Below the pieces are notes generated by a model. It saw only the letters and a program-made list of their open reading frames with translations. It was not told the DNA's origin and searched no databases. From Candidatus Heimdallarchaeota archaeon (GTDB taxonomy: Archaea > Asgardarchaeota > Heimdallarchaeia > Heimdallarchaeales > Heimdallarchaeaceae), in the NCBI GenBank assembly GCA_030668825.1, contig DAOVET010000037.1, positions 1 through 22,760 on the forward strand: a stretch of DNA of 22,760 nt. Direction: 5' to 3'. Positions 3,031 to 15,942 of this stretch are shown piece after piece. The number at the start of each line of letters is the position of its first letter. Position 1 is the first letter of the stretch. The position numbers and the translations under genes were made by a program.

Positions 3031-6000
3031 GTGATTAGATTGAAACCCAAAAAGAGAATATTATTAATATTTTTTATATTTCTCTGTGTTGTCTCTGTAC
3101 TCCCTGTAAGAGCTCAGAATTCAGAGTTTCCTCTGATCTATACTGAAGTAACTGATGATGGTGGCATAATTAGAAGCTATCCAATAATCGATGATGAAAA
3201 CATTCTACACTCATTTATTCATCTTCGTACTGACAAGAATAAAATTATTCATCACTATGTAAAGGATAATGTTACACTCCAATCTACATTTGCAATTAAT
3301 TTTATAGAAATTGAGTTTATTGAAAGCTTCTTGTTTAATGGAAGTTTGTATCTTTTTTATAGTGAATATACTATCTCAAGTTTAAAACATTACAAGCTTT
3401 TTAGATGGTCATATGAATCAGAATCTACAACAATAATCTCTTCTTTTGATGACATGGAACTATTAACTATAGATTATACACAGTCATTTTTTGCTAATGG
3501 TACATTTCATTTCTTTAATACTCACAGATATGGTTTTGAATTAATGCACTTGAATGTAACTCACTATTCTGGTCTTACTAATTTTACTAAGGAAGAATTC
3601 TTTGTTGCAGATCCTTTACAAAGAGAGATTATTGATATAATTCTTGACAAGGATGACAGTATATGGTACCTTTATCAAGAGTGGGCTGCACCCAATCATT
3701 TTGGCATTTTCAGAAATCTTGGAATTGGATTATTACAAAACCAAAGTTTAACTTTTGTAACAAATTTCTCATTTGAGGGTATTTTTCTTCAAGTTGCTAA
3801 AATTGAAGCATTTGTAGAAAACAAAGATATTTTCAGTGTATTATTCTTTCATTCCAACACTATGTTTTATGGTACTTTTAATGGAACATCTATTAATTAT
3901 AGCACTCAAGAGCTGAAAACAAACTATCTCTTCGATAATTTTCTTCTTAGAAAGAACGAAAACACAGTCAAACTTTGTCTAGTTACAAGACTTCCTATTA
4001 GCGGTTTCGTTTATCTCTATGAAGGAAATTATAACGATATTACTATGAAATGGGAATTTTCTTCAATTCCCACACAATTTCAGGTTTTGGAGAATAAATA
4101 TGGATTCGATATAAATAATGAGCATATTGTTGTTCAATATGTTTCTATAATTCCTTCAAGTTTATTGGAAAGACCAAAAGGATTTGATTATCGGCAAGAG
4201 AATCTAATGGTTTTAATGAGTATATCTTCATTAGGTGTTAAAGTAGACCCAATCTTCGACAATGTTGAACTCTTTAACACTTTTCAAGATTGGTACACAC
4301 AAAATTCTGCACTTTTCATTCTTATAATCGTAGCTTTAGTGGGTATCACATCAGCCATTATCTACTACTTGATAAGAAGAATCCCTAAAGTTAAGAAGTT
4401 CTTACTAAATACAGAGGAAGTAGGAGAGTATCCATTAAGAGTTCTAATAAAGAAAAATCTTTTGAGATACTTTGAGAATACTTTTGAGACTTTCAAAATT
4501 ATAGGGTTTACAAACAGAAAGAGAACTTTTCTTACGATATTTAGCTTGTTGATTACAGGTTTTCTGTTAAATTCTATTCTTATAATCTCTGAATCACAGC
4601 AACCTGCAGTGATTAATGCTTTTTATCAATCCCAAGATTTATCAGATAACAGAATGGTAACTGCTGAGTTTACTTCCACAATAGAACATCTAGAAGATAC
4701 ACCTTCAGGATTTACGCCATATTATCATGAACTTGCAGAAGAAGAAATGGTAGAAATTTATTCAGATTTTGAGGTGGGTAAATATACAGAATCTATTAAA
4801 TCTTCATATTTTGTACAGATTGGTGCTGGGTTAATAACTAATCAGTATTTAATTGCATCATTCCCAAATGACACATCTGATGTTATTACTATGTTTCTAA
4901 CTGAAGGGAGAGCGCCTATACATCCATATGAAATTGTTGTTTCAACCTCTATTAGAAATCGGTTCAGTTTAAATCTCAATGATAGTCTCAATTTAACAAT
5001 ATCATCGTTTTTTCTGAATGTAGAAGATCCAGAAAATTTCACTGTAGGAGTTTCTGCTGTAGGATTTTATGATCCACCTACATCTTCTGAACTTAAACTA
5101 ATTACTGAGTATCAGGAACAACCTTATGATCTTTTCAGAAAAGTAAGAATGTCAGGTATGCTTACTACAAATGACAATCTTTTTCAAATATTTGCTTCTA
5201 GTCAGAAATTTGATTTGCTGATTCGGGGATATTTTCAGTTTGAATTTAACTTTGTAGATTTTAAAATGAAGGACAGAATCGTTCTACTAAATGAGCAAAA
5301 AACTATTGTAGACAAGACGTTTACTTTTACATTCGATAGTTATTCTTCTATTACTATCTCAAATGAGATGCTGTGGTTGTTTGGATCTTTCAACAACTAT
5401 TATTTGCAAAACATGGCTAGAATTTTGATTTTTGCATTTCCTGCACTATTACTCTCAATTTTCATGATAATTGAATCTTCAGATTTATTCTCAACAAGTT
5501 ACGAACAAGAAGTTGACATTCTAAGGAAAAAAGGATTTAGAAGAGGAAAAATTGCTAAACTATATCTTTCTGTAAGAATTGTCGAAGCACTAGTTGCAAC
5601 ATTAATAAGCTTTGGAATTGCGGTTATAACCGCAATTCCTCTTATTAGAATAGATGGCTTCTTTAGATTCACAAATCAAGAAACGGAATTAATATTAAGG
5701 AATATAATTGTAAAAATGTTAATAGTTTTTGCAGTATTGGTCACTATTTCAATACCTAAGATCATATCAATTGCATCAGCAAAACGAAAGCATGAAAAGG
5801 ATCCCAAAAAAGGATCAAATCTTTTCAAAAAACTACCTTGGAGAGATTTATCAATTCTTATTCTAGGAATAGTGCTTTTTCAAATATTCTACAATAGAAC
5901 TTATATAGCGTTTTATACACAAACTGTTTCAAATTATATCTCATATCTCATTCTAACAATGCTAGGAGCATTATTTTTGATAGTGGGAGGACTTCCTATT

Positions 6001-7245
6001 TTTATAAAGGTTCTTTCAATTGCATGGAGGTTGCTTGGTTATGTCTTCTGGAAAAGCAGAAAAAACAAATTCAGTTACATTTTTGCAGAAATAAGTAAGG
6101 ACATCAGATATTTTGAAAATATTACGGTGATCTTCTTGCTTGTTATAATTATTATCATCCCATCTATTGTGATACCATCCACAAAGGAAGATATACTAAC
6201 TCAACAAGCACAATTTCAAAACGGTTCAGATCTAATGATTTCGAATTGGTATGAAGCAGAAAATGTAAGTCAAGAACAGATTAATAGCTTAGAAAAAGTG
6301 AAAAATTCCACACATTTAAGACTCTATTCAATTATTTTTGGAGCTCTCTCTAATGTACAATTATTAGTTATCAATACGTCGGATTTTTTGAGTACGGCTT
6401 ATCAACCAACTCAGGATGTTATAGGATTTAATTGGGCTGATTTACCAAATTTGGATAATAATTCGATTATCATTTCTAAAACAATTGTTGAAAAATTCAA
6501 AATCTATCCTGGAGAAGAACTCTTATTCACAACAATTATTGAATGGATAGTGGTTTCATACAGTGTTTCAATAATTAGTTCTTTTGAATTATTTCCAGTT
6601 TTTCATAATGAGAGAGATAGTGCTAAAAATAATACACTTATTGTGTTATCTAGTGATTGTTTTGATATAATTGAACCATTTATTATGGGATTGGTGCTAA
6701 TAACTGATGCATTACTGGTTCGTTTGGAGGATATAAAAGATGTAGATGAAATGAAGGAACTGTTATTTACAATGAGTCAGAATCGAGTGATTTCTTACAT
6801 AGATGTAAAAGAAACTCTAGCAACTCCTCTCTATAACATCTTCATCATCGAAATCCTTCTTTCTTTGGGAGTAGCGTGTATGATTTTTGTTTTTTCAAGC
6901 TATACAACAGCTACAAAAGTAATAGAGAAAAGAGTAATCAAACATGAACTGATGAAGAAAATTGGTCTAAAAGCAAACACGATTGTCAATCTAACTTTAG
7001 CTGAATGTGTTTTAGCAGCCCTAATTCCGGGATTAGGTATAGGAACCATTATAGGTTTCTCAGTGTTGAATAGACTACTCTCATTATTATCATACGCAGC
7101 AGAACCATATTCAATATATACAATTATTTATCCAGGAACGGCTATCATTATCTTCTTTTTGCTAATACCATTTACATTGTATTTGAGCTTAAATTGGAAT
7201 CTAAGAAGAGAATTCAGAAGATATGCACCAACACAAATGGAGTGA
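3031..7245 (+). CDS. Large MacB/FtsX-family (type VII) ABC transporter permease with duplicated permease module and an extra N-terminal extracellular domain
   Basis: Signal peptide, then ~400 aa beta-rich domain, a TM helix, and two units of TM + large ectodomain + 3 TM. FtsX-like coupling motifs (EQEVDILRKKG; KHELMKKIG). It is directly followed by an ABC ATPase gene. Confidence 0.88.
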   Translation: MIRLKPKKRILLIFFIFLCVVSVLPVRAQNSEFPLIYTEVTDDGGIIRSYPIIDDENILHSFIHLRTDKNKIIHHYVKDNVTLQSTFAINFIEIEFIESFLFNGSLYLFYSEYTISSLKHYKLFRWSYESESTTIISSFDDMELLTIDYTQSFFANGTFHFFNTHRYGFELMHLNVTHYSGLTNFTKEEFFVADPLQREIIDIILDKDDSIWYLYQEWAAPNHFGIFRNLGIGLLQNQSLTFVTNFSFEGIFLQVAKIEAFVENKDIFSVLFFHSNTMFYGTFNGTSINYSTQELKTNYLFDNFLLRKNENTVKLCLVTRLPISGFVYLYEGNYNDITMKWEFSSIPTQFQVLENKYGFDINNEHIVVQYVSIIPSSLLERPKGFDYRQENLMVLMSISSLGVKVDPIFDNVELFNTFQDWYTQNSALFILIIVALVGITSAIIYYLIRRIPKVKKFLLNTEEVGEYPLRVLIKKNLLRYFENTFETFKIIGFTNRKRTFLTIFSLLITGFLLNSILIISESQQPAVINAFYQSQDLSDNRMVTAEFTSTIEHLEDTPSGFTPYYHELAEEEMVEIYSDFEVGKYTESIKSSYFVQIGAGLITNQYLIASFPNDTSDVITMFLTEGRAPIHPYEIVVSTSIRNRFSLNLNDSLNLTISSFFLNVEDPENFTVGVSAVGFYDPPTSSELKLITEYQEQPYDLFRKVRMSGMLTTNDNLFQIFASSQKFDLLIRGYFQFEFNFVDFKMKDRIVLLNEQKTIVDKTFTFTFDSYSSITISNEMLWLFGSFNNYYLQNMARILIFAFPALLLSIFMIIESSDLFSTSYEQEVDILRKKGFRRGKIAKLYLSVRIVEALVATLISFGIAVITAIPLIRIDGFFRFTNQETELILRNIIVKMLIVFAVLVTISIPKIISIASAKRKHEKDPKKGSNLFKKLPWRDLSILILGIVLFQIFYNRTYIAFYTQTVSNYISYLILTMLGALFLIVGGLPIFIKVLSIAWRLLGYVFWKSRKNKFSYIFAEISKDIRYFENITVIFLLVIIIIIPSIVIPSTKEDILTQQAQFQNGSDLMISNWYEAENVSQEQINSLEKVKNSTHLRLYSIIFGALSNVQLLVINTSDFLSTAYQPTQDVIGFNWADLPNLDNNSIIISKTIVEKFKIYPGEELLFTTIIEWIVVSYSVSIISSFELFPVFHNERDSAKNNTLIVLSSDCFDIIEPFIMGLVLITDALLVRLEDIKDVDEMKELLFTMSQNRVISYIDVKETLATPLYNIFIIEILLSLGVACMIFVFSSYTTATKVIEKRVIKHELMKKIGLKANTIVNLTLAECVLAALIPGLGIGTIIGFSVLNRLLSLLSYAAEPYSIYTIIYPGTAIIIFFLLIPFTLYLSLNWNLRREFRRYAPTQME

Positions 7246-7249
7246 TAAA

Positions 7250-9022
7250 ATGATAATATGTAATGATCTCGCGAAAATCTACTCTGATCCAATTACAGAA
7301 GCGAGTGTAATTGCACTCAGAGGAATAGATTTAGAGGTAAGAAAAGGTGAAATTGCTTCAATCGTTGGGCCCTCGGGAGCTGGAAAATCAACACTCATCA
7401 AAATACTCTCAGGCTTAGAAGTTCCTACAAGCGGAACGGTTTTACTACATGGAACAAATCTAAATGATTTAAGTGATAGGGAAATGCAAGACTTTAGATT
7501 TGGGAAAATAGGCATACTTAATCAGTATTTGAATAGTAATTTAATCCCTCACCTGACAGTCAAACAACACATTCTTTTACCAATGAGGATGAGAAAAAGA
7601 GAGTTAGAAAAAGCTAAACAAGAAGTAAAAGAAATAATGAAGAATTTGAATATCTTGGAATTGGGTGACAAAAAAGTTACAAAAATCTCAGGAGGAGAAG
7701 CAATTAGAACAAGTATAGGTGCTCTATTAGCTCAGAAACCAGAGATAATTCTAGCTGATGAACCAACAGGACAACTTGATACAGATAATACAAATGATGT
7801 GATTGAAACTTTCAAAGAATTAAACAAAGATCTAGGGACAACAATTCTCGTTGTTACTCATGATCTTCGTTTTCGAAATGCTTTTCGCAAAAGCTATATA
7901 CTTCGTGATGGTAGACTTGTAGGTATTAATCAAGATATAGAACGAGCAGAGCTGGACTTTCTTCTGAAACCAATTGATTCAACTCTTCAATCAACACTTG
8001 ATAAATTTCATTTTCTTAGAATTCCAATGTCAATTATCACTGATACAGGAATTAGCTCCTTAGCTGAATTCAGCATGCATCCATCGAAGAGATTTGCAAT
8101 TATTTACAACCCGCAAGCTATTTCAAAAGATGAAGTTCATAAAGTTCTCAAAAGATCTGACAGTTTCTATGATGATGAAGATGATGAAATAATTTCGGAA
8201 CCAGCAGAAGAGAGAGGTAGAAAAATTACTTTCGATCAAGTAAGCTTTCTTTTCGATAAAGAGTTCCTCCCTCCAAAGAAGACTCTTCCTAACATCATAG
8301 AAGTTAAGAAATTATCTAAATCATTCTCATTTGATAGTAAAGTCCAACACGTCTTGAACAAAATTTCTTTCAGTATTAGAAGAGGTGATTTTGTTGTTAT
8401 TGCTGGTAAAAGCGGTGCGGGAAAGACTACTTTGTTGAATGTTATCTCAGGTGTTGAAACGCCTGACTCTGGATCTATTATCATTACTGGTGCAGATGTT
8501 TCAAAGATGAAGAGATCTAATCTTTCAGATTTTAGGTTTAACAATATTTCAATGATATCTCAGATGAATAATTTATATAGTCAGTACACTGTTGCTGATA
8601 ATATTATTATTCCAAAAATATTTAGCAAGAAAAAGAACAAACTAGATGAAACAGATTTGTATATCATGGAAGATTGTGAAATTAAACATAAAGTCAATCA
8701 CTACCCTGTTGAGCTTTCGGGGGGAGAAACTCAAAGAGCAGCTCTAGCAGTAGCATTATCAAGAAGAAATCCATTATTATTTGCTGATGAACCAACAGCT
8801 AATGTTGATAGCAGGATAGCTCGAAACATAGTTTCTTTGTTAATGGAAATTAATCAGCTTCAGAAAACAACTATTCTTATGAGTACTCATGACCTATCTT
8901 TGGTGAGAATAGGATTCAGAGTAATAAAACTTGAAGATGGAAGTATAGTAGACGACTTTAGAGTAACTAAAAATAATTTAAAGGAAATTGTTGAAGAATA
9001 CTATAATGTGGAAATAGAATAA
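7250..9022 (+). CDS. ABC transporter ATP-binding protein with two LolD/MacB-type nucleotide-binding domains
   Basis: Walker A GPSGAGKST and GKSGAGKTT; signatures ISGGE and LSGGE; Walker B ILADEPT and LFADEPT; two THD H-loops. ATG 7250 is preferred because of the GGAGTGA RBS at 7239-7245. Confidence 0.93.
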   Translation: MIICNDLAKIYSDPITEASVIALRGIDLEVRKGEIASIVGPSGAGKSTLIKILSGLEVPTSGTVLLHGTNLNDLSDREMQDFRFGKIGILNQYLNSNLIPHLTVKQHILLPMRMRKRELEKAKQEVKEIMKNLNILELGDKKVTKISGGEAIRTSIGALLAQKPEIILADEPTGQLDTDNTNDVIETFKELNKDLGTTILVVTHDLRFRNAFRKSYILRDGRLVGINQDIERAELDFLLKPIDSTLQSTLDKFHFLRIPMSIITDTGISSLAEFSMHPSKRFAIIYNPQAISKDEVHKVLKRSDSFYDDEDDEIISEPAEERGRKITFDQVSFLFDKEFLPPKKTLPNIIEVKKLSKSFSFDSKVQHVLNKISFSIRRGDFVVIAGKSGAGKTTLLNVISGVETPDSGSIIITGADVSKMKRSNLSDFRFNNISMISQMNNLYSQYTVADNIIIPKIFSKKKNKLDETDLYIMEDCEIKHKVNHYPVELSGGETQRAALAVALSRRNPLLFADEPTANVDSRIARNIVSLLMEINQLQKTTILMSTHDLSLVRIGFRVIKLEDGSIVDDFRVTKNNLKEIVEEYYNVEIE

Positions 9023-9075: not shown

Positions 9076-9095
9076 GAAAAGTTGTGAAACTTTTC
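9076..9095 (+). promoter_or_regulatory. Perfect palindromic operator candidate GAAAAGTT-GTGA-AACTTTTC
   Basis: 8-bp perfect inverted repeat with a 4-nt spacer, 15 bp upstream of CGA (9111) and TTTTATATA (9116-9124). Its right part is conserved at 675-691. Confidence 0.68.
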
Positions 9096-9176
9096 TATTT
9101 ATTTATTGAGCGATATTTTATATATTTTTATGATGATGTCTTTTTATTAAAGCAAAATGCTTTAAAAGGTGATTTA

Positions 9177-10418
9177 ATGAGATTTGAAACAAAAAAAGTA
9201 AAAACAAAAACAATTTTATCATTTGTAACAATAGGCATATTAGTGTTGTTTGGTAATACTCAATCATCTGCTAATTGCATATGGGAACCTGCTGATCTTT
9301 TTACTGAGGCTGTTGATATTGCAATTGAAGGAAAGATGGCTGCAGGTCACGTACCTTCTTGTGCATTTAGTGTAATTAATGGTTCTGAAGTCTTTTTCTC
9401 TAAAAGTTATGGAGAGCAACTAGGAACTGACAGAGTTTACTTGCTTAATTCTATTTCAAAAACAGTTGCTGCAACAGCTGCTCTTGCTCTTCAAGAACAA
9501 GGTTTGATTAATATCAACGATGATATCAATGATTACTTACCTTTTGAAATAAAACATCCTCTATACCCCAACACAACTATTACAATCAAGCATTTATTAG
9601 CACATCAATCTGGCATAAAAGGATCAAATATTTACTGGGATGTTCTATTGAACAATTCTTACTCTTGGCCTTGAATTATCTATGAGTCTTTTAATGTAAA
9701 TGGTTCTCTATATTCTACTGAGAACTTTAACACTTGGGAACCTGGTACATCTACTGGATATTCAGATCCAGCAACTGACATAGGTGTATTCATATATGAA
9801 CTTGCGGCAAACAAGTCTTATCATCAAATTGTCACGGAAACGATTCTTACACCTTTAGGAATGCTAAACACAGAAATGGACATCAATGAGTATCCACCCG
9901 AAAAATTAACAACACCTTATGAATGGGATAATGTTCAAGGAGAAAATGTTCAGCTCGAATACACTAATACTTCTTTCAATCCAGGTGGTGGAGGATATTG
10001 GAGCACAGTAGACGATATGTCTAAATTTATGATTGCTCATATGAATCAAGGAAATTATGCTGAAAATTCTATTCTTAATGAAACTTCTATTGAATTGATG
10101 CATACTCCACTAATTGGGAGGTATGCACTTGGATGGTTTGTTGAAGCAGATGGAAGGCAAGGACATTATGGTGGTCCATGGTACGGATACTTTGGAAGTG
10201 TTCAATTAAAAGGTACCATAGGTGTAATTTTCTTCTGCAATCAAGGTAGGTCTAATCCCGAAAGTGTAGCTATTATCGAATTAATATGGACTAAAGCACT
10301 TAAGCTACTTAACGAAAAAACATGCACAACTACTAAAACTAGTCTCTATCTACTTCCAATAATCTCAACCATATCCGCCATTGTTTTTATTCAAAAATAT
10401 AGAAAAAGAAAGGATTAA
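9177..10418 (+). pseudogene. Membrane-anchored serine hydrolase (beta-lactamase class C/PBP-like family) interrupted by one in-frame TGA at 9672-9674
   Basis: The ORFs 9084..9674 and 9861..10418 are in the same frame, and the gap reads open after the TGA (IIYESF...WEPGTSTGYSD...ILTPLGM). Motifs: SxxK (SISK), LLAHQSG, YSD (YxN position), PLGM, GHYGG. It has a signal peptide and a C-terminal TM + basic tail. RBS GGTGA at 9168-9172. Confidence 0.85.
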
Positions 10419-12786: not shown

Positions 12787-13485
12787 TTAAAAGAAGTCAG
12801 TTATTCTTTTTTGTCTATAACGTCTATATTCGTTCCCTATCTTACTCCATAATATCCCTTCAGCTTTCTCAGGAGTCGAAGGAATTCCATCAGTATCACG
12901 CTGAATTATTGACTTTACATTTCTATAACCTTGGTAAGAGTAACTAAAATTTAGTACAACCTCATTAGCCACTTCTCTTACTTCTTGCTTATTATAATGT
13001 AAAGCAGCAGTCAGAGGAGTAATTGCTTCGGAATCTTTAAGTTCCCTTAGAGCTGTAATCAGAAATTTTGCAGCAGGTTCGCCTATTTTTTCTAGAGCAT
13101 AAACAGCATATTCTCTAACGATTACGTCTTCTTTTTCATCTTTTAGTGTGTTTATCAGAGGTTCTATAGCTCGTTTGTTACCTATTTTCCCTAGAGTTTC
13201 AACAGCACAGACTCTAACCTTGCTTTGAGAATTACCTAATTCAGCAATTAGTTGTGGAACAGCATTAGAACCAATCTTTGCTAGAGCTTTAGAAGCAACA
13301 AAACGAATATTTTTATCTTCATCCTTAAGAGCAGTAATCAAGGGATCTATAACTGGTTCACCAATTTTAATGAGTGCGTTGACTGTTCTGGAAATGACTC
13401 TTGTGTTTTTATTTTTTAACTCTGAAATTAGAGATAAAATGTCTCCAGTATTTTCGAATTTCTCTATATACTTATCTACACTCAT
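12787..13485 (-). CDS. HEAT/PBS-lyase repeat protein with C-terminal PIP-box-like motif
   Basis: Repeats of L...L.D....[IV]R..A..AL.KIG...[AV]..PL. The protein ends in QKRITDFF*. Confidence 0.9.
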   Translation of the reverse strand: MSVDKYIEKFENTGDILSLISELKNKNTRVISRTVNALIKIGEPVIDPLITALKDEDKNIRFVASKALAKIGSNAVPQLIAELGNSQSKVRVCAVETLGKIGNKRAIEPLINTLKDEKEDVIVREYAVYALEKIGEPAAKFLITALRELKDSEAITPLTAALHYNKQEVREVANEVVLNFSYSYQGYRNVKSIIQRDTDGIPSTPEKAEGILWSKIGNEYRRYRQKRITDFF

Positions 13486-13641
13486 GATAATTCCTGCTTA
13501 GGATAAAGGTTGAACCGACAATATATATTTTTTTACAACACCTATATAAAGAGAATCCCACGTTTATATATGTAATTCAGTTTGATGGGGTAATTTTTAT
13601 ATTTAAGGAAGAGAGATACTATTTTGTTTGAGGATAGCTAT

Positions 13642-15942
13642 ATGTCAAAGGATGTCGATGAGATACTAGAAGAGGTAGATAATCTCTATAAAGATGGTAG
13701 ATTTGCTACTGCTCTAGAGAAAATAGAAGATACTCTAGAAAACCTTTGGCATGAAAATTTCAATCCTGAGGAGATTTTAAAGTTCAACATCAAAAAGTTG
13801 TCAATTCTTGTTACAGCTAAAGATTTTGATAGTGCTCAAATACTATGTGAACAACTGTTGGAAGATATCAAAGAGCTAGATATCAGTTTTTACCATATAG
13901 ATATTCTTTTAGAAAAAGCGCTAATCTGCAGCAATCTAAAACAAAAGGATGTTTGTGATGATAGTCTTACTCAAGTAGAAGAAGCATTGACTTTATTCAA
14001 ACGAGGAGATAGAGAGAACTATATACGAAGAAATGCTCAGTTTAATTTGGTTAAAGGCATGCACCATGTCTTAGCTAGCAAATACTTTGAATCAATTGAT
14101 TTCTTTGAAGAGAGTTTGAAAGAGAATAGAAAAATTTCAGATTTATATGGAATCGCTAATAGTCTTCTATGGACTGGTAAAGCCCTCTACAATTTAGGAG
14201 AATATGATTCTGCGAATAGCTTTTGGGATCAAAGTTTCGAGATATTTACTGATTTGGGATATAGACGCCCTCTTGCAGAATATTATATGGACAAAGCAGG
14301 AATATTTTACAACCAGGGAATTTTGAGTCAAGCTTTAGAAACTGTGAGTAAATCTCTGTTAATCTTCGAGGAATTAAATGATGAAGTTTCTCTTGCTATA
14401 GTACACCATAGAATGGGATACATTTACAGACATTCAGGGAACCAAGAAAAAGCCCTCGAAAATTACTTAAAGAGCAAATCGATTTATGAACGTAAAAATT
14501 TAGTTCACGATAAAGCAAAAGCTATTCTCGATATTTCATCAATAAATCGAGATATTGGAGAATATGATGTTTCACTAAAAAATTTGAAAGAATATTATAA
14601 GATTAAAGAAGAAACTAATGATCAATATGCTATTGCAATAGCTTTGTACGAAACTGGTAAAATATACTCCCTAAAAGGTGAATTGGATAAAGCAGAAGAA
14701 AATTACAGGAAAGCATTACCAATTGCAATTGAACATGATAGGTTAGAAACTTTAAGTAATTTATATTATGCTCTTGGAAATCTATCACAACAAAAAGGTG
14801 ATCTAGAAGGTTCCTCAAAATTCTTTCTTCAAAGTTTGCAATTACGAGAACAGATAAAGAAAGTATATCTTATCTCATACTCTCTTAAAAGTTTGATTCA
14901 AATTAATTTAGATCTAAAACTTAATAAAATGGCTGAAGGATTTCTGAAAAAATTGAATAATTTATCAAAGGAAACTGAAAATCAAAATATTGCACAACTA
15001 TACAGGTTATCAGAATCTTTATATCTGAAAAATACAGGAAATGAAAGAGACATCCAAAAATCTGCAGTTTTCTTTGAACAACTTGCTAAAGAAGAAGTTG
15101 TTGATTATATGATTACTATTGAATCTCTACTAAATCTATCTGAAATTCTTATCTGGGAGATGTCTAAAACAGGTAATGAGGACCTTTTGAATGAAGTGAG
15201 AGAGTATCTTAATAAACTTGAAAGTATAGCAAAGAAACAGAATTCTTTTGCTTTACTTGTCGAGGTAATGCTTCTTCAAGCTGAATTCTCACTTGTTGAA
15301 TTGAAAGCAGAAGAAGCAAGAGATATTTTGTCTAAAGCTATGGAAATCGCAGAAGAAAAAGGAATAGTAAAACTAGCTATTAAAATTTCAAATGAACATG
15401 ATGATTTATTAGATCAACTGGATCTGTGGGAAGATTTCACGATGAAACTCCCTACTATAGCTGAAAAATTAGAATTGTCACATATAGAAGATAGATTAAA
15501 ACAAATTGTCAGAAGAAGGTCTGTTATAGGACCAAAAGTTGAAAGTGAAGCTGAGCTACCAATTATGGTTATTATCCAATCAGATCAAGGATTAATTATC
15601 TTCTCAGAATATTTTGATGAGATTTTAGGAGAAGGAATCTATGATGAAATCCTCCTATCACTTAAAAAAGCCTCGTCTAATATGCTAAATAATAGTCAAG
15701 AAAGGTTGAAAAATAAGGAATTTACATTTCTAATAAACAAAGTAAACAACATCTTTGTTAGTTATATTTTCGTTGGTAAATCTTACAATGGGATTAAAAA
15801 GTTAAATAATCTCATAAACATATTCAGTTCTAACAAAGAACTCAAGAAGATGATCGAAAAAGCTGCTAGAAGTAATGAATCATTAAATTATGAAGATAGA
15901 ATCAATCTATCCAGTTTTGTAAATGATATATTTGTTCAATAA
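13642..15942 (+). CDS. Tetratricopeptide (TPR/MalT-like) repeat protein with a C-terminal small alpha/beta (longin/roadblock-like) domain
   Basis: Multiple ~40-aa TPR repeats (e.g. IAIALYETGKIYSLKGELDKAEENYRKALPI), a helical linker (LAIKISNEHD), and a C-terminal beta-beta-alpha-beta-beta-beta-alpha pattern. ATG 13642 follows GAGGA. Confidence 0.88.
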   Translation: MSKDVDEILEEVDNLYKDGRFATALEKIEDTLENLWHENFNPEEILKFNIKKLSILVTAKDFDSAQILCEQLLEDIKELDISFYHIDILLEKALICSNLKQKDVCDDSLTQVEEALTLFKRGDRENYIRRNAQFNLVKGMHHVLASKYFESIDFFEESLKENRKISDLYGIANSLLWTGKALYNLGEYDSANSFWDQSFEIFTDLGYRRPLAEYYMDKAGIFYNQGILSQALETVSKSLLIFEELNDEVSLAIVHHRMGYIYRHSGNQEKALENYLKSKSIYERKNLVHDKAKAILDISSINRDIGEYDVSLKNLKEYYKIKEETNDQYAIAIALYETGKIYSLKGELDKAEENYRKALPIAIEHDRLETLSNLYYALGNLSQQKGDLEGSSKFFLQSLQLREQIKKVYLISYSLKSLIQINLDLKLNKMAEGFLKKLNNLSKETENQNIAQLYRLSESLYLKNTGNERDIQKSAVFFEQLAKEEVVDYMITIESLLNLSEILIWEMSKTGNEDLLNEVREYLNKLESIAKKQNSFALLVEVMLLQAEFSLVELKAEEARDILSKAMEIAEEKGIVKLAIKISNEHDDLLDQLDLWEDFTMKLPTIAEKLELSHIEDRLKQIVRRRSVIGPKVESEAELPIMVIIQSDQGLIIFSEYFDEILGEGIYDEILLSLKKASSNMLNNSQERLKNKEFTFLINKVNNIFVSYIFVGKSYNGIKKLNNLINIFSSNKELKKMIEKAARSNESLNYEDRINLSSFVNDIFVQ

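What the first reader, a model, noticed from the sequence alone, without database searches (positions are those of the whole stretch)
12787..12960. HEAT-repeat protein ending in a canonical PCNA-interacting PIP box
Seen: the final 8 residues (12790-12813) are Q-K-R-I-T-D-F-F*. This exactly matches the PIP consensus Qxx[ILM]xxF[FY] at the extreme C-terminus, after a non-repeat ~50-aa tail with a basic patch (YRRYRQKR). Established: archaeal PCNA partners (PolB, Fen1, RFC-L, RNase HII) carry this motif at or near their C-termini, and TD at positions 5-6 occurs in high-affinity PIPs such as p21 (QTSMTDFY). I know of no described PBS-lyase HEAT protein with a PIP box. Inference: a non-enzymatic solenoid adaptor or inhibitor of the sliding clamp in Asgard archaea.
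Basis: partly seen in the sequence, partly recalled or inferred. Interest (0 to 1): 0.75.

Follow-up and report, generated by a model that had tools for sequence, protein, structure and literature searches.

The report
HEAT-repeat protein with conserved PCNA-binding tail
A small helical-repeat protein found in two genera of Heimdall (Asgard) archaea ends in a conserved sliding-clamp docking motif, so it is probably a previously undescribed partner of the DNA replication clamp whose job is still unknown.

Summary
The minus-strand ORF 12787-13485 encodes a 232-aa PBS-type HEAT-repeat protein ending QKRITDFF-stop.

The motif is not chance. Q225 is invariant, and Q-x-x-[LIM]-x-[DE]-[FY]-hydrophobic is kept in 30 of 30 aligned orthologues. 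The linker before it varies in sequence and length. In the genome set, 19 of 21 distinct orthologues fit, and the other 2 have Cys at position 8.

In the window's own genome the strict motif lies in the last 12 residues of 7 of 2597 crude ORFs, against 0.30 expected. The others include Fen1, a Y-family polymerase and a Hel308-like helicase.

A complex model places the tail on the host PCNA (score 0.87, best control 0.01). PIP-PCNA is a textbook pair, so this may be recall.

The family is closed: 31 cluster representatives. Among 400 genomes of the phylum, full-length matches occur in two genera only.

No conserved operon partner or expression data were found. Adaptor or inhibitor remains open. 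A eukaryotic HEAT protein with a C-terminal PIP, Scc2/NIPBL, is already described.

The parts
12787..13485 (-). Gene for the 232-aa HEAT-repeat protein (P0001), ATG at 13485-13483, TAA stop at 12789-12787
   Evidence: ORF list and translation; Pfam HEAT_2 and HEAT_PBS above cut-offs; 30 further orthologue cluster representatives at 42-82% identity
12931..13449 (-). HEAT/PBS-type alpha-solenoid, residues 13-185 (about five and a half helix-turn-helix repeats); acidic to neutral
   Evidence: AlphaFold2 model: helices from residue 13 to 185, block pLDDT 83-96 for residues 41-180. Closest solved sequences and folds are alphaRep artificial binders, MTH187, CpcE/F and deoxyhypusine hydroxylase. Domain net charge is -12 to 0 in 30 orthologues
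12880..12918 (-). Second conserved stretch in the tail, residues 190-202 (V-K-S-I-I-x-R-D-x-x-x-I-P; S192 and P202 invariant); role unknown
   Evidence: Alignment A1 invariant columns S192 and P202; the model has low confidence here, pLDDT 43-53
12814..12879 (-). Variable linker, residues 203-224. It ends in a predicted beta-hairpin (211-224) and a basic/aromatic flank [KR]-[KR]-[FY]-x just before the motif
   Evidence: 18-26 residues lie between invariant P202 and Q225; mean column identity is 0.42 against 0.76 in the core. Hairpin E211-216/E219-224. Residues 211-212, 214-217 and 221-224 touch PCNA in the complex model
12790..12813 (-). PIP box Q225-K-R-I-T-D-F-F232 at the extreme C-terminus
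   Evidence: Translation. Q 30/30; position 4 L23/M4/I3; position 6 D23/E7; position 7 F26/Y4; position 8 F13/L5/I5/V3/Y3/W1. Predicted contacts with least error join residues 224-230 to PCNA 41-48, 232 and 248-253
13486..13623 (.). 138-bp intergenic region shared with the divergently transcribed 772-aa TPR gene (13624-15942, +); presumed promoter region, not analysed
   Evidence: ORF list; sequence read; TPR assignment

Best explanation
The gene encodes a lineage-specific client of the archaeal sliding clamp. It has a small, acidic PBS-type HEAT solenoid (residues 13-185) joined by a flexible, basic linker of about 40 residues to a canonical PIP box at the extreme C-terminus.

Proposed mechanism:
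- The PIP box inserts into the PIP pocket on the front face of a PCNA subunit. The Gln sits in the Q pocket, and the Leu/Ile plus the two aromatic/hydrophobic residues sit in the hydrophobic pocket.
- The preceding basic strand zips along the acidic C-terminal tail of PCNA.
- This tethers the solenoid to DNA-loaded clamps.
- The solenoid has no recognisable catalytic domain. Residues on what I take to be its concave face are invariant or nearly so (C93, E96, K100, E125, Y126, Y129). It most likely acts as a binding module that brings a still unknown protein or ligand to the clamp, that is, a PCNA-tethered adaptor.

Shown here: the motif, its conservation, its enrichment on known clamp clients in this genome, the fold class, and the narrow distribution.
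Inferred: the binding itself (in silico only) and the adaptor role.

My odds that the tail binds PCNA are about 0.85. My odds that the role is specifically an adaptor are about 0.5.
For: (1) Canonical motif at the extreme C-terminus.

(2) Conservation. Q225 is invariant and the motif is kept in 30 of 30 aligned orthologues down to 44% identity, while the 18-26-residue linker before it has indels and 0.42 mean column identity. The 31st family member, P0283, also has it. Of the 21 distinct genome-derived orthologues with a complete C-terminus, 19 fit; the other 2 keep Q, L and F with Cys at position 8.

(3) Specificity. 0 of 54 and 0 of 85 other HEAT_PBS proteins found with the same queries carry the motif in their last 15 residues.

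(4) Own-genome census. 7 ORFs carry the strict motif in the last 12 residues, against 0.30 expected. Besides this protein they are Fen1 (XPG_N/XPG_I), a Y-family polymerase (IMS) and a Hel308-like helicase, plus DUF72, DUF2797 and one 102-aa ORF. The loose pattern adds PolB, NreA and an RFC-large-like protein.

(5) One PCNA gene in the genome.

(6) Complex prediction of PCNA with tail 186-232: score 0.87 in each of three runs, best of 3 controls 0.01. That mark was reached by 58 of 80 solved complexes and 2 of 110 mismatched pairs. The runs agree in at least 79% of contacts, and partner pLDDT is at least 59. Contacts are PCNA 41, 44-48, 125-127, 231-232 and 248-256 with partner 221-232.

(7) Basic flank. 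The tail pI is 8.87-10.14 in 26 of 30 orthologues, and [KR] is the majority residue at positions 221-222. Positive flanks raise PIP affinity (PMC6881253, passages read).

(8) Solenoid. Its closest solved relatives are protein-binding scaffolds, the alphaRep binders. There is no enzymatic Pfam or NCBIfam family above cut-off.

(9) Precedent. The eukaryotic HEAT protein Scc2 is recruited to PCNA by a C-terminal PIP (PMC10497406).
Against: - No experiment exists. PIP-PCNA is a textbook pair with many solved complexes, so the pass may reflect likeness to known structures and not this copy's behaviour. My own alignments were used, so the calibration counts hold only roughly.
- No partner for the solenoid is identified.
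- There is no conserved operon. The divergent TPR neighbour is kept in 9 of 20 related loci, all at 69% identity or more. The DUF2229 pair is kept in 9 of 20. Neither is next to the gene in L024, L028, L030 or L031 (the DUF2229 pair is still there in L023, at 56% identity). None of the neighbours is replication-related.
- The family is confined to two genera, so it is not a core replisome component.
- Position 8 of the motif is loose (F/L/I/V/Y/W, and Cys in 2 genome orthologues).
- The assignment of the conserved residues to the concave face rests on my recalled mapping of alphaRep variable positions, not on a computed surface analysis.
Confidence: 0.5

Rival explanations
1. Clamp antagonist or regulator. 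The protein's job is to occupy PIP pockets. A high-affinity T-D-containing PIP with a basic flank would compete with polymerases and nucleases or alter the ring. This would work like p21 in eukaryotes or the small protein TIP in Thermococcales. The solenoid would add bulk or steric hindrance.
For: Basic flanks raise affinity by orders of magnitude (PMC6881253). No enzymatic domain is present. The complex model shows contacts beyond the motif: partner 211-217 with PCNA 156-158, 173-178 and 204-206. A small archaeal PCNA inhibitor is a known concept (TIP; PMC6204406, passage read). A patchy, lineage-specific distribution fits a regulator.
Against: Nothing distinguishes this from an adaptor. The strongly conserved residues on the solenoid face suggest a specific ligand, not mere bulk. 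By the description read, TIP uses a non-canonical PIP followed by an amphipathic helix; here the motif is canonical and nothing follows it. The extra contacts come from a region with partner pLDDT of about 60.
Confidence: 0.2
2. PCNA-recruited DNA-processing protein. The helical repeats themselves bind or process DNA, as in HEAT-like-repeat glycosylases of the AlkD type, and the PIP box brings the activity to the fork.
For: The size (232 aa) and all-helical repeat fold resemble AlkD-type proteins (recalled, not tested). Many C-terminal-PIP proteins in this genome are DNA enzymes.
Against: Pfam gives no match to the DNA_alkylation family at E up to 0.1. No AlkD-type entry appears among the rows listed in the Foldseek output or the 27 PDB sequence matches. 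The solenoid is acidic to neutral (net charge -12 to 0, pI 4.64-6.64 in 30 orthologues), which is unfavourable for wrapping DNA.
Confidence: 0.07
3. The C-terminal motif is conserved for another reason, such as docking to a different protein, folding back onto the solenoid, or a stability signal. The resemblance to a PIP box would then be coincidental.
For: Short linear motifs are degenerate. The first stage scanned very many windows, so some perfect matches are expected by chance. Position 8 is variable and is Cys in 2 orthologues. No replication gene lies nearby.
Against: A chance match would not stay intact across 31 family members with a variable linker. The same motif in the same position marks Fen1, a Y-family polymerase, Hel308, PolB, NreA and RFC-large-like proteins in this genome. 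The flank is basic, as in true PIPs. The complex model passes its controls.
Confidence: 0.13

Closest known systems
Archaeal C-terminal PIP-box clients of PCNA (Fen1, PolB, RFC large subunit, Y-family polymerase, Hel308, NreA)
   Same: Same motif class, same position at or within a few residues of the C-terminus, on a flexible tail. In this very genome those proteins end in closely similar Q-K/x-x-L-x-[DE/x]-F-F strings.
   Different: All of those carry a recognisable DNA-enzyme or clamp-loader domain. This protein is only a HEAT_PBS solenoid with no catalytic family above cut-off and an acidic body.
Scc2/NIPBL cohesin loader, a HAWK HEAT-repeat protein with a C-terminal PIP (PMC10497406; abstract and passages read)
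   Same: A HEAT-repeat protein tethered to PCNA by a PIP at its very C-terminus on a flexible tail; the tether recruits a non-enzymatic HEAT module to replication forks.
   Different: In the paper's numbering Scc2 runs to residue 1493; it is described as a hook-shaped eukaryotic HAWK that binds kleisin, SMC heads and Scc4. This protein is 232 aa and PBS-lyase type. Its only HAWK-related Pfam signals are generic repeat cross-matches: Cnd1 27.4 bits against cut-off 26.4, PDS5 E 0.029. It is restricted to two Heimdall genera. The relation is analogy, with no demonstrated homology.
TIP, Thermococcales inhibitor of PCNA (described in PMC6204406; one passage read)
   Same: A small archaeal, lineage-restricted, non-enzymatic protein that docks at the PIP site of PCNA.
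   Different: [quoted passage not shown] Here the PIP is canonical and terminal, with nothing after it, and the body is a HEAT solenoid. I made no sequence comparison, because no TIP sequence was obtained.
PBS-lyase HEAT-like repeat scaffolds: MTH187 (1te4), alphaRep artificial binders, CpcE/CpcF bilin lyases, deoxyhypusine hydroxylase
   Same: Same repeat family by sequence and fold. Profile against PDB: alphaRep up to E 2e-99, MTH187 6.4e-13, CpcE 2.9e-10, DOHH 1.4e-07. Foldseek top hits are alphaRep.
   Different: None of the other HEAT_PBS proteins sampled has a C-terminal PIP (0 of 54 and 0 of 85). The NCBIfam lyase equivalogs are far below cut-off: CpcF 53.4 against 220, CpcE 43.8 against 330. 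It should therefore not be called a bilin lyase.
   Same: T-D at positions 5-6 and a basic flank. Basic flanks tune affinity over four orders of magnitude (PMC6881253).
   Different: p21 is a disordered CDK inhibitor with residues after the motif that pair with the interdomain connector loop. Here the chain ends at position 8, so only the upstream flank can add contacts.

Membership tests
Canonical PIP-box PCNA clients | Motif Q-x-x-[ILM]-x-x-[FY]-[FY] | tested here: met
   Q-K-R-I-T-D-F-F at residues 225-232. 15 of 30 orthologues meet the strict form and 30 of 30 a form with any hydrophobic residue at position 8
Canonical PIP-box PCNA clients | Motif lies in a flexible or disordered terminal region | tested here: met
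   Extreme C-terminus. The linker has pLDDT 43-53 for residues 181-210 and length variation of 18-26 residues
Canonical PIP-box PCNA clients | Motif conserved among orthologues | tested here: met
   30 of 30 in alignment A1, plus P0283. 19 of 21 distinct genome orthologues fit; 2 have Cys at position 8
Canonical PIP-box PCNA clients | Cognate PCNA encoded by the same genome | tested here: met
   One PCNA_N match, 58.4 bits against cut-off 20.3, in a 261-aa ORF on contig C11
Canonical PIP-box PCNA clients | Physical, motif-dependent binding to PCNA | not testable with these tools
   Only an in-silico model: score 0.87, best control 0.01. A textbook pair may pass from memory
PBS lyase HEAT-like repeat proteins (Pfam PF03130 / PF13646) | Score above Pfam gathering cut-off | tested here: met
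   HEAT_PBS 67.3 bits (cut-off 20.9); HEAT_2 85.7 bits (cut-off 27.7)
Phycobilin lyases CpcE/CpcF (NCBIfam equivalogs) | Score above the equivalog cut-off | tested here: not met
   CpcF 53.4 bits against 220; CpcE 43.8 against 330
HAWK proteins (Scc2/NIPBL, Pds5, condensin Cnd1) | Specific homology to a HAWK family beyond generic HEAT repeats; large hook-shaped kleisin-binding body | tested here: not met
   Cnd1 27.4 bits against cut-off 26.4, with no stretch passing on its own; PDS5 E 0.029, below cut-off. The same Cnd1 tag is precomputed on many unrelated HEAT_PBS hits. The protein is only 232 aa. Kleisin binding was not tested
AlkD-type HEAT-like-repeat DNA glycosylases (Pfam DNA_alkylation) | Match to the family model; basic DNA-binding concave surface | tested here: not met
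   No such family among the 16 Pfam matches at E up to 0.1. The solenoid's net charge is -12 to 0
PIP degron (CRL4-Cdt2 substrates) | T-D within the PIP plus a basic residue four positions after the motif (definition recalled) | tested here: not met
   T-D is present, but the chain ends at position 8 in the window protein. Orthologues have 0-5 trailing residues, often acidic
TIP (Thermococcales inhibitor of PCNA) | Non-canonical PIP followed by an amphipathic helix that disrupts the trimer (as described in PMC6204406) | tested here: not met
   The motif is canonical and terminal, with no sequence after it. Trimer disruption is not testable here

The most novel reading that the evidence does not exclude
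The protein is a PCNA-tethered HEAT adaptor that delivers a chromosome-organising or chromatin factor, for instance an SMC-type complex, to newly replicated DNA in these Heimdallarchaeia. That would be an independently evolved archaeal counterpart of the PCNA-Scc2/NIPBL link that couples cohesin loading to replication in eukaryotes.
Probability: 0.07. Interest if true: 0.8.

Novelty: new member of a known kind. Interest (0 to 1): 0.45.

Why it matters
PCNA is the hub of archaeal and eukaryotic replication and repair, and its client list defines what happens at the fork. Asgard archaea are the closest known relatives of eukaryotes, yet I found no paper on Asgard PCNA clients in my searches, and most lineages are known mainly from metagenome assemblies (recalled).

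This work adds a client that is purely a protein-binding solenoid. That raises the prospect of clamp-tethered adaptors or clamp regulators in Heimdallarchaeia, and it gives a simple pair of recombinant proteins to test.

The same census shows that a C-terminal PIP search is highly specific in this lineage. It flags two further families of unknown function, DUF72 and DUF2797, as probable clamp clients.

The limit on significance is the narrow distribution (two genera) and the unknown partner of the solenoid.

Tried and rejected
- The profile search of the 1.84-billion representative library with alignment A1 was swamped. 104,735 proteins scored E up to 0.001, and the 150 listed were nearly all giant multi-repeat HEAT proteins. 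It says nothing about distant relatives of the tail.
- Gene neighbourhood: no replication or repair gene nearby, and no neighbour conserved beyond close relatives. Context gives no functional lead.
- Expression: no RNA holder was listed. The one run labelled RNA-Seq (X20) was judged 'probably DNA' when laid and covered only the flanks. I draw no conclusion on expression.
- Bilin lyase reading rejected: NCBIfam equivalogs are far below cut-off.
- AlkD-like glycosylase reading rejected as unlikely.
- PIP-degron reading rejected: nothing follows the motif.
- HAWK homology rejected: only generic repeat cross-matches.
- Literature searches found no paper on a PBS-type HEAT protein with a PIP box or on such a protein in Heimdallarchaeota: 'pip box' + 'heat repeat' + archaea + pcna, 0 papers; 'heimdallarchaeota' + 'heat repeat', 0; 'pbs lyase' + heat + pcna, 0. 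For Asgard + PCNA + PIP, none of the 15 listed of 22 papers is relevant by title or abstract start. Supplementary files were not opened and could hold interactome tables that bear on this.
- I did not use the second structure job, the protein atlas or the listing of cluster members.

Full report
OBSERVATION. On the minus strand, 12787-13485 is a 232-aa ORF (P0001) that ends Y-R-R-Y-R-Q-K-R-I-T-D-F-F-stop. Pfam places the protein in HEAT_2 (E 2.7e-24) and HEAT_PBS (E 4.1e-19), both well above their cut-offs. The AlphaFold2 model has mean pLDDT 78. It shows a regular helical solenoid from residue 13 to 185 (block pLDDT 83-96 for 41-180). A low-confidence stretch follows (181-210, pLDDT 43-53), then a beta-hairpin at 211-224 and a one-turn helix at 228-231 inside the motif.

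IS IT MORE THAN CHANCE? I ran three independent tests.

(a) Conservation.
- A search of 5.8 billion proteins gave 29 full-length orthologue clusters at 42-82% identity. Their sources name them Heimdallarchaeota or Asgard.
- In the alignment, Q225 is invariant. Position 4 is L/M/I (23/4/3), position 6 is D/E (23/7), position 7 is F/Y (26/4), and position 8 is F/L/I/V/Y/W.
- The stretch between invariant P202 and Q225 varies in length from 18 to 26 residues. Its mean column identity is 0.42, against 0.76 for the solenoid core and 0.68 for the motif.
- A profile search added one member, P0283, which also ends in the motif. It also showed a clean score gap: family members score 291 bits or more at 98-100% coverage (two shorter sequences aside), and the next hit scores 244 bits at 50% coverage.
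- From genome assemblies, 41 complete C-termini collapse to 21 distinct sequences; the two locus sets largely duplicate each other. Of these, 19 fit the pattern and 2 end Q-T-T-L-T-E-F-C-E-D. Those 2 keep positions 1, 4 and 7 but have Cys at position 8.

(b) Specificity. None of the 54 and 85 other HEAT_PBS proteins returned by the same searches has such a motif in its last 15 residues.

(c) A census of the window's own genome (2.76 Mb, 33.4% GC, 2597 crude ORFs of 100 aa or more).
- The strict motif lies in the last 12 residues of 7 ORFs, against 0.30 expected from tail shuffles. It lies at the very end of 3, against 0.083 expected.
- By Pfam, the other six are Fen1, a Y-family polymerase, a Hel308-like helicase, a DUF72 protein, a DUF2797 protein and a 102-aa ORF without a family.
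- A looser pattern adds PolB, NreA and an RFC-large-like protein.

So in this organism a C-terminal PIP is a reliable flag for clamp clients, and the HEAT protein's motif looks like theirs.

THE CLAMP AND THE MODELLED COMPLEX. The genome has one PCNA gene: contig C11, 261 aa, PCNA_N 58.4 bits. I sent PCNA (alignment A2 of 30 sequences) and the tail residues 186-232 (alignment A1) to the controlled complex predictor.
- The score was 0.87 in each of three runs, and the best of 3 controls scored 0.01.
- That mark was reached by 58 of 80 solved complexes and 2 of 110 mismatched pairs.
- The runs agree in at least 79% of contacts, and partner pLDDT is at least 59.
- The confident contacts join partner residues 221-232 to PCNA residues 41, 44-48, 125-127, 231-232 and 248-256. 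Q225 lies against 250 and 252, and I228 against 41-48, 232 and 248-249.
- From my recollection of solved PIP-PCNA complexes this is the canonical pocket: Q pocket at the C-terminal tail, hydrophobic pocket under the interdomain connector. That assignment is recalled, not computed.
- PIP-PCNA is a textbook pair, so the pass shows likeness to known complexes. It does not prove that this copy binds. My own alignments were used, so the calibration counts hold only roughly.

WHAT THE BODY OF THE PROTEIN IS.
- By sequence profile against the PDB, and by Foldseek, the nearest solved relatives are the artificial alphaRep binders. MTH187, the CpcE/F bilin lyase and deoxyhypusine hydroxylase follow further off.
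- NCBIfam lyase equivalogs score far below cut-off, so it is not a bilin lyase.
- No DNA-glycosylase family appears.
- The solenoid is acidic to neutral in all 30 orthologues (net charge -12 to 0). The tail is basic, with pI 8.87-10.14 in 26 of 30. That argues against a DNA-wrapping role for the repeats. It fits the finding that positive flanks raise PIP affinity (PMC6881253, passages read).
- Several invariant or near-invariant residues (C93, E96, K100, E125, Y126, Y129) sit at repeat positions that, as I recall, are the variable, target-binding positions of alphaRep proteins. I read this as a conserved ligand-binding face. It is an inference resting on a recalled mapping.
- A second conserved stretch in the tail (residues 190-202, with invariant S192 and P202) is unexplained.

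DISTRIBUTION AND CONTEXT.
- Among 400 genomes of the phylum, full-length matches occur only in the window's genus (g1) and a sister genus (g2). In g1, 20 of 24 other genomes had a match at the threshold: 17 of these are full-length, two are fragments (one cut by a contig end), and one is an unrelated long HEAT protein. In g2, 2 of 2 matched.
- Three other genera of the same family had none, including two single-contig genomes at 92-93% completeness. No other family had a full-length match; the matches elsewhere cover only the repeats inside much longer ORFs.
- The own genome has a single copy.
- Neighbours in the window: a DUF2229/HGD-D-like pair lies downstream and convergent. A 772-aa TPR protein lies upstream and divergent. 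Beyond it come an ORF with no family and a histidine-kinase-like protein.
- In 20 related loci, the TPR gene is adjacent in 9 and the DUF2229 pair in 9. All the TPR cases are orthologues of 69% identity or more; the DUF2229 pair extends to L023, at 56%. Neither is adjacent in L024, L028, L030 or L031. This is plain synteny among relatives, not an operon signal.

MECHANISM. Most likely the tail docks the protein on DNA-loaded PCNA through the PIP pocket, with the basic strand before the motif lying along PCNA's acidic C-terminal tail. The solenoid then presents a conserved binding face near the clamp. I favour a tethered adaptor (about 0.5) over a p21- or TIP-like clamp antagonist (about 0.2), a DNA-processing role (about 0.07) or a non-PCNA function of the motif (about 0.13). 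The evidence does not separate the first two.

COMPARISON WITH WHAT IS KNOWN.
- The motif and its placement are those of ordinary archaeal clamp clients. What is unusual is a client made only of PBS-type HEAT repeats.
The eukaryotic cohesin loader Scc2/NIPBL, a HAWK HEAT protein, is recruited to PCNA through a PIP at its very C-terminus (PMC10497406, abstract and passages read). The resemblance is functional. There is no specific homology and the archaeal family is young and narrow.
- TIP of Thermococcales is a small archaeal PCNA inhibitor with a different, non-canonical motif (PMC6204406, one passage read).
- Four searches of the library found no paper on a PBS-type HEAT protein with a PIP, nor on HEAT proteins in Heimdallarchaeota. 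Supplements were closed, and subscription journals are not covered.

VERDICT. The functional label (adaptor or inhibitor) remains inference. I class it as a new member of a known kind, the PIP-box clamp clients, with an unusual non-enzymatic body. Interest is moderate, limited by the narrow distribution and the unknown partner.

Noticed in passing
Own genome contig C97:11508-12371 (+), locus L009 / L066: A DUF72 protein (287 aa, Pfam E 2.4e-47) ends in a PIP box (Q-Q-K-L-A-D-F-F-G). 28 of the 30 best-matching loci fetched from 47 genomes of the order keep a C-terminal PIP, down to 29% identity. One paper notes that DUF72 is an unassigned TIM-barrel related to UV-damage endonuclease and is enriched near polB2 (PMC11791011, one passage read); that paper does not mention a PIP. 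A likely uncharacterised PCNA-linked repair enzyme.
   Followed up: partly
Own genome contig C16:1880-2788 (-), locus L003 / L096: A DUF2797 protein (about 301 aa, Pfam E 3.4e-18) ends K-G-Q-K-S-L-S-E-F-F. 30 of the 30 best-matching loci fetched from 47 genomes of the order keep the C-terminal PIP, down to 29% identity. Another probable clamp client of unknown function. No paper held 'DUF2797' together with DUF72 or PCNA.
   Followed up: partly
Own genome C102:2008-2316 (+) = L010; C1:8864-9172 (-) = L002: Two ORFs of about 102 aa with no Pfam or NCBIfam family end in PIP-like strings preceded by basic residues. They could be small clamp-binding proteins or spurious ORFs.
   Followed up: no
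Protein P0142 (1502 aa, from the representative library): A long multi-repeat HEAT protein of unknown origin ends K-K-K-R-T-Q-V-S-I-D-E-W-L-N-N-S-N-S, a PIP-like string with a basic flank. It is one of 2 loose-pattern hits among the 149 listed proteins checked; the other, P0267, looks like chance.
   Followed up: no
window 12804: In one contig of run X11 (depth 14.5 of 30.7, 31 letters from the contig end), T is read as A. On the coding strand this changes codon 228 from Ile to Leu, the commonest residue at PIP position 4 in the family. A strain variant that keeps the motif (codon worked out).
   Followed up: partly
window 12880-12918 (-), residues 190-202: A second conserved stretch in the otherwise variable tail (V-K-S-I-I-x-R-D-x-x-x-I-P, with S192 and P202 invariant in 30 of 30). 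It is predicted with low confidence and has no assigned role.
   Followed up: no
window 9084-9674 (+) and 9861-10418 (+): Two adjacent ORFs match the N-terminal part (profile positions 4-110) and the C-terminal part (189-323) of the Beta-lactamase fold family PF00144. This looks like one gene split by a frameshift, a stop or an assembly error.
   Followed up: no
window 3031-7245 (+): A 1404-aa ORF with no Pfam or NCBIfam family. It is conserved at 88-90% identity in two related loci, and its end overlaps the start of a double ABC-ATPase gene (7223-9022).
   Followed up: no
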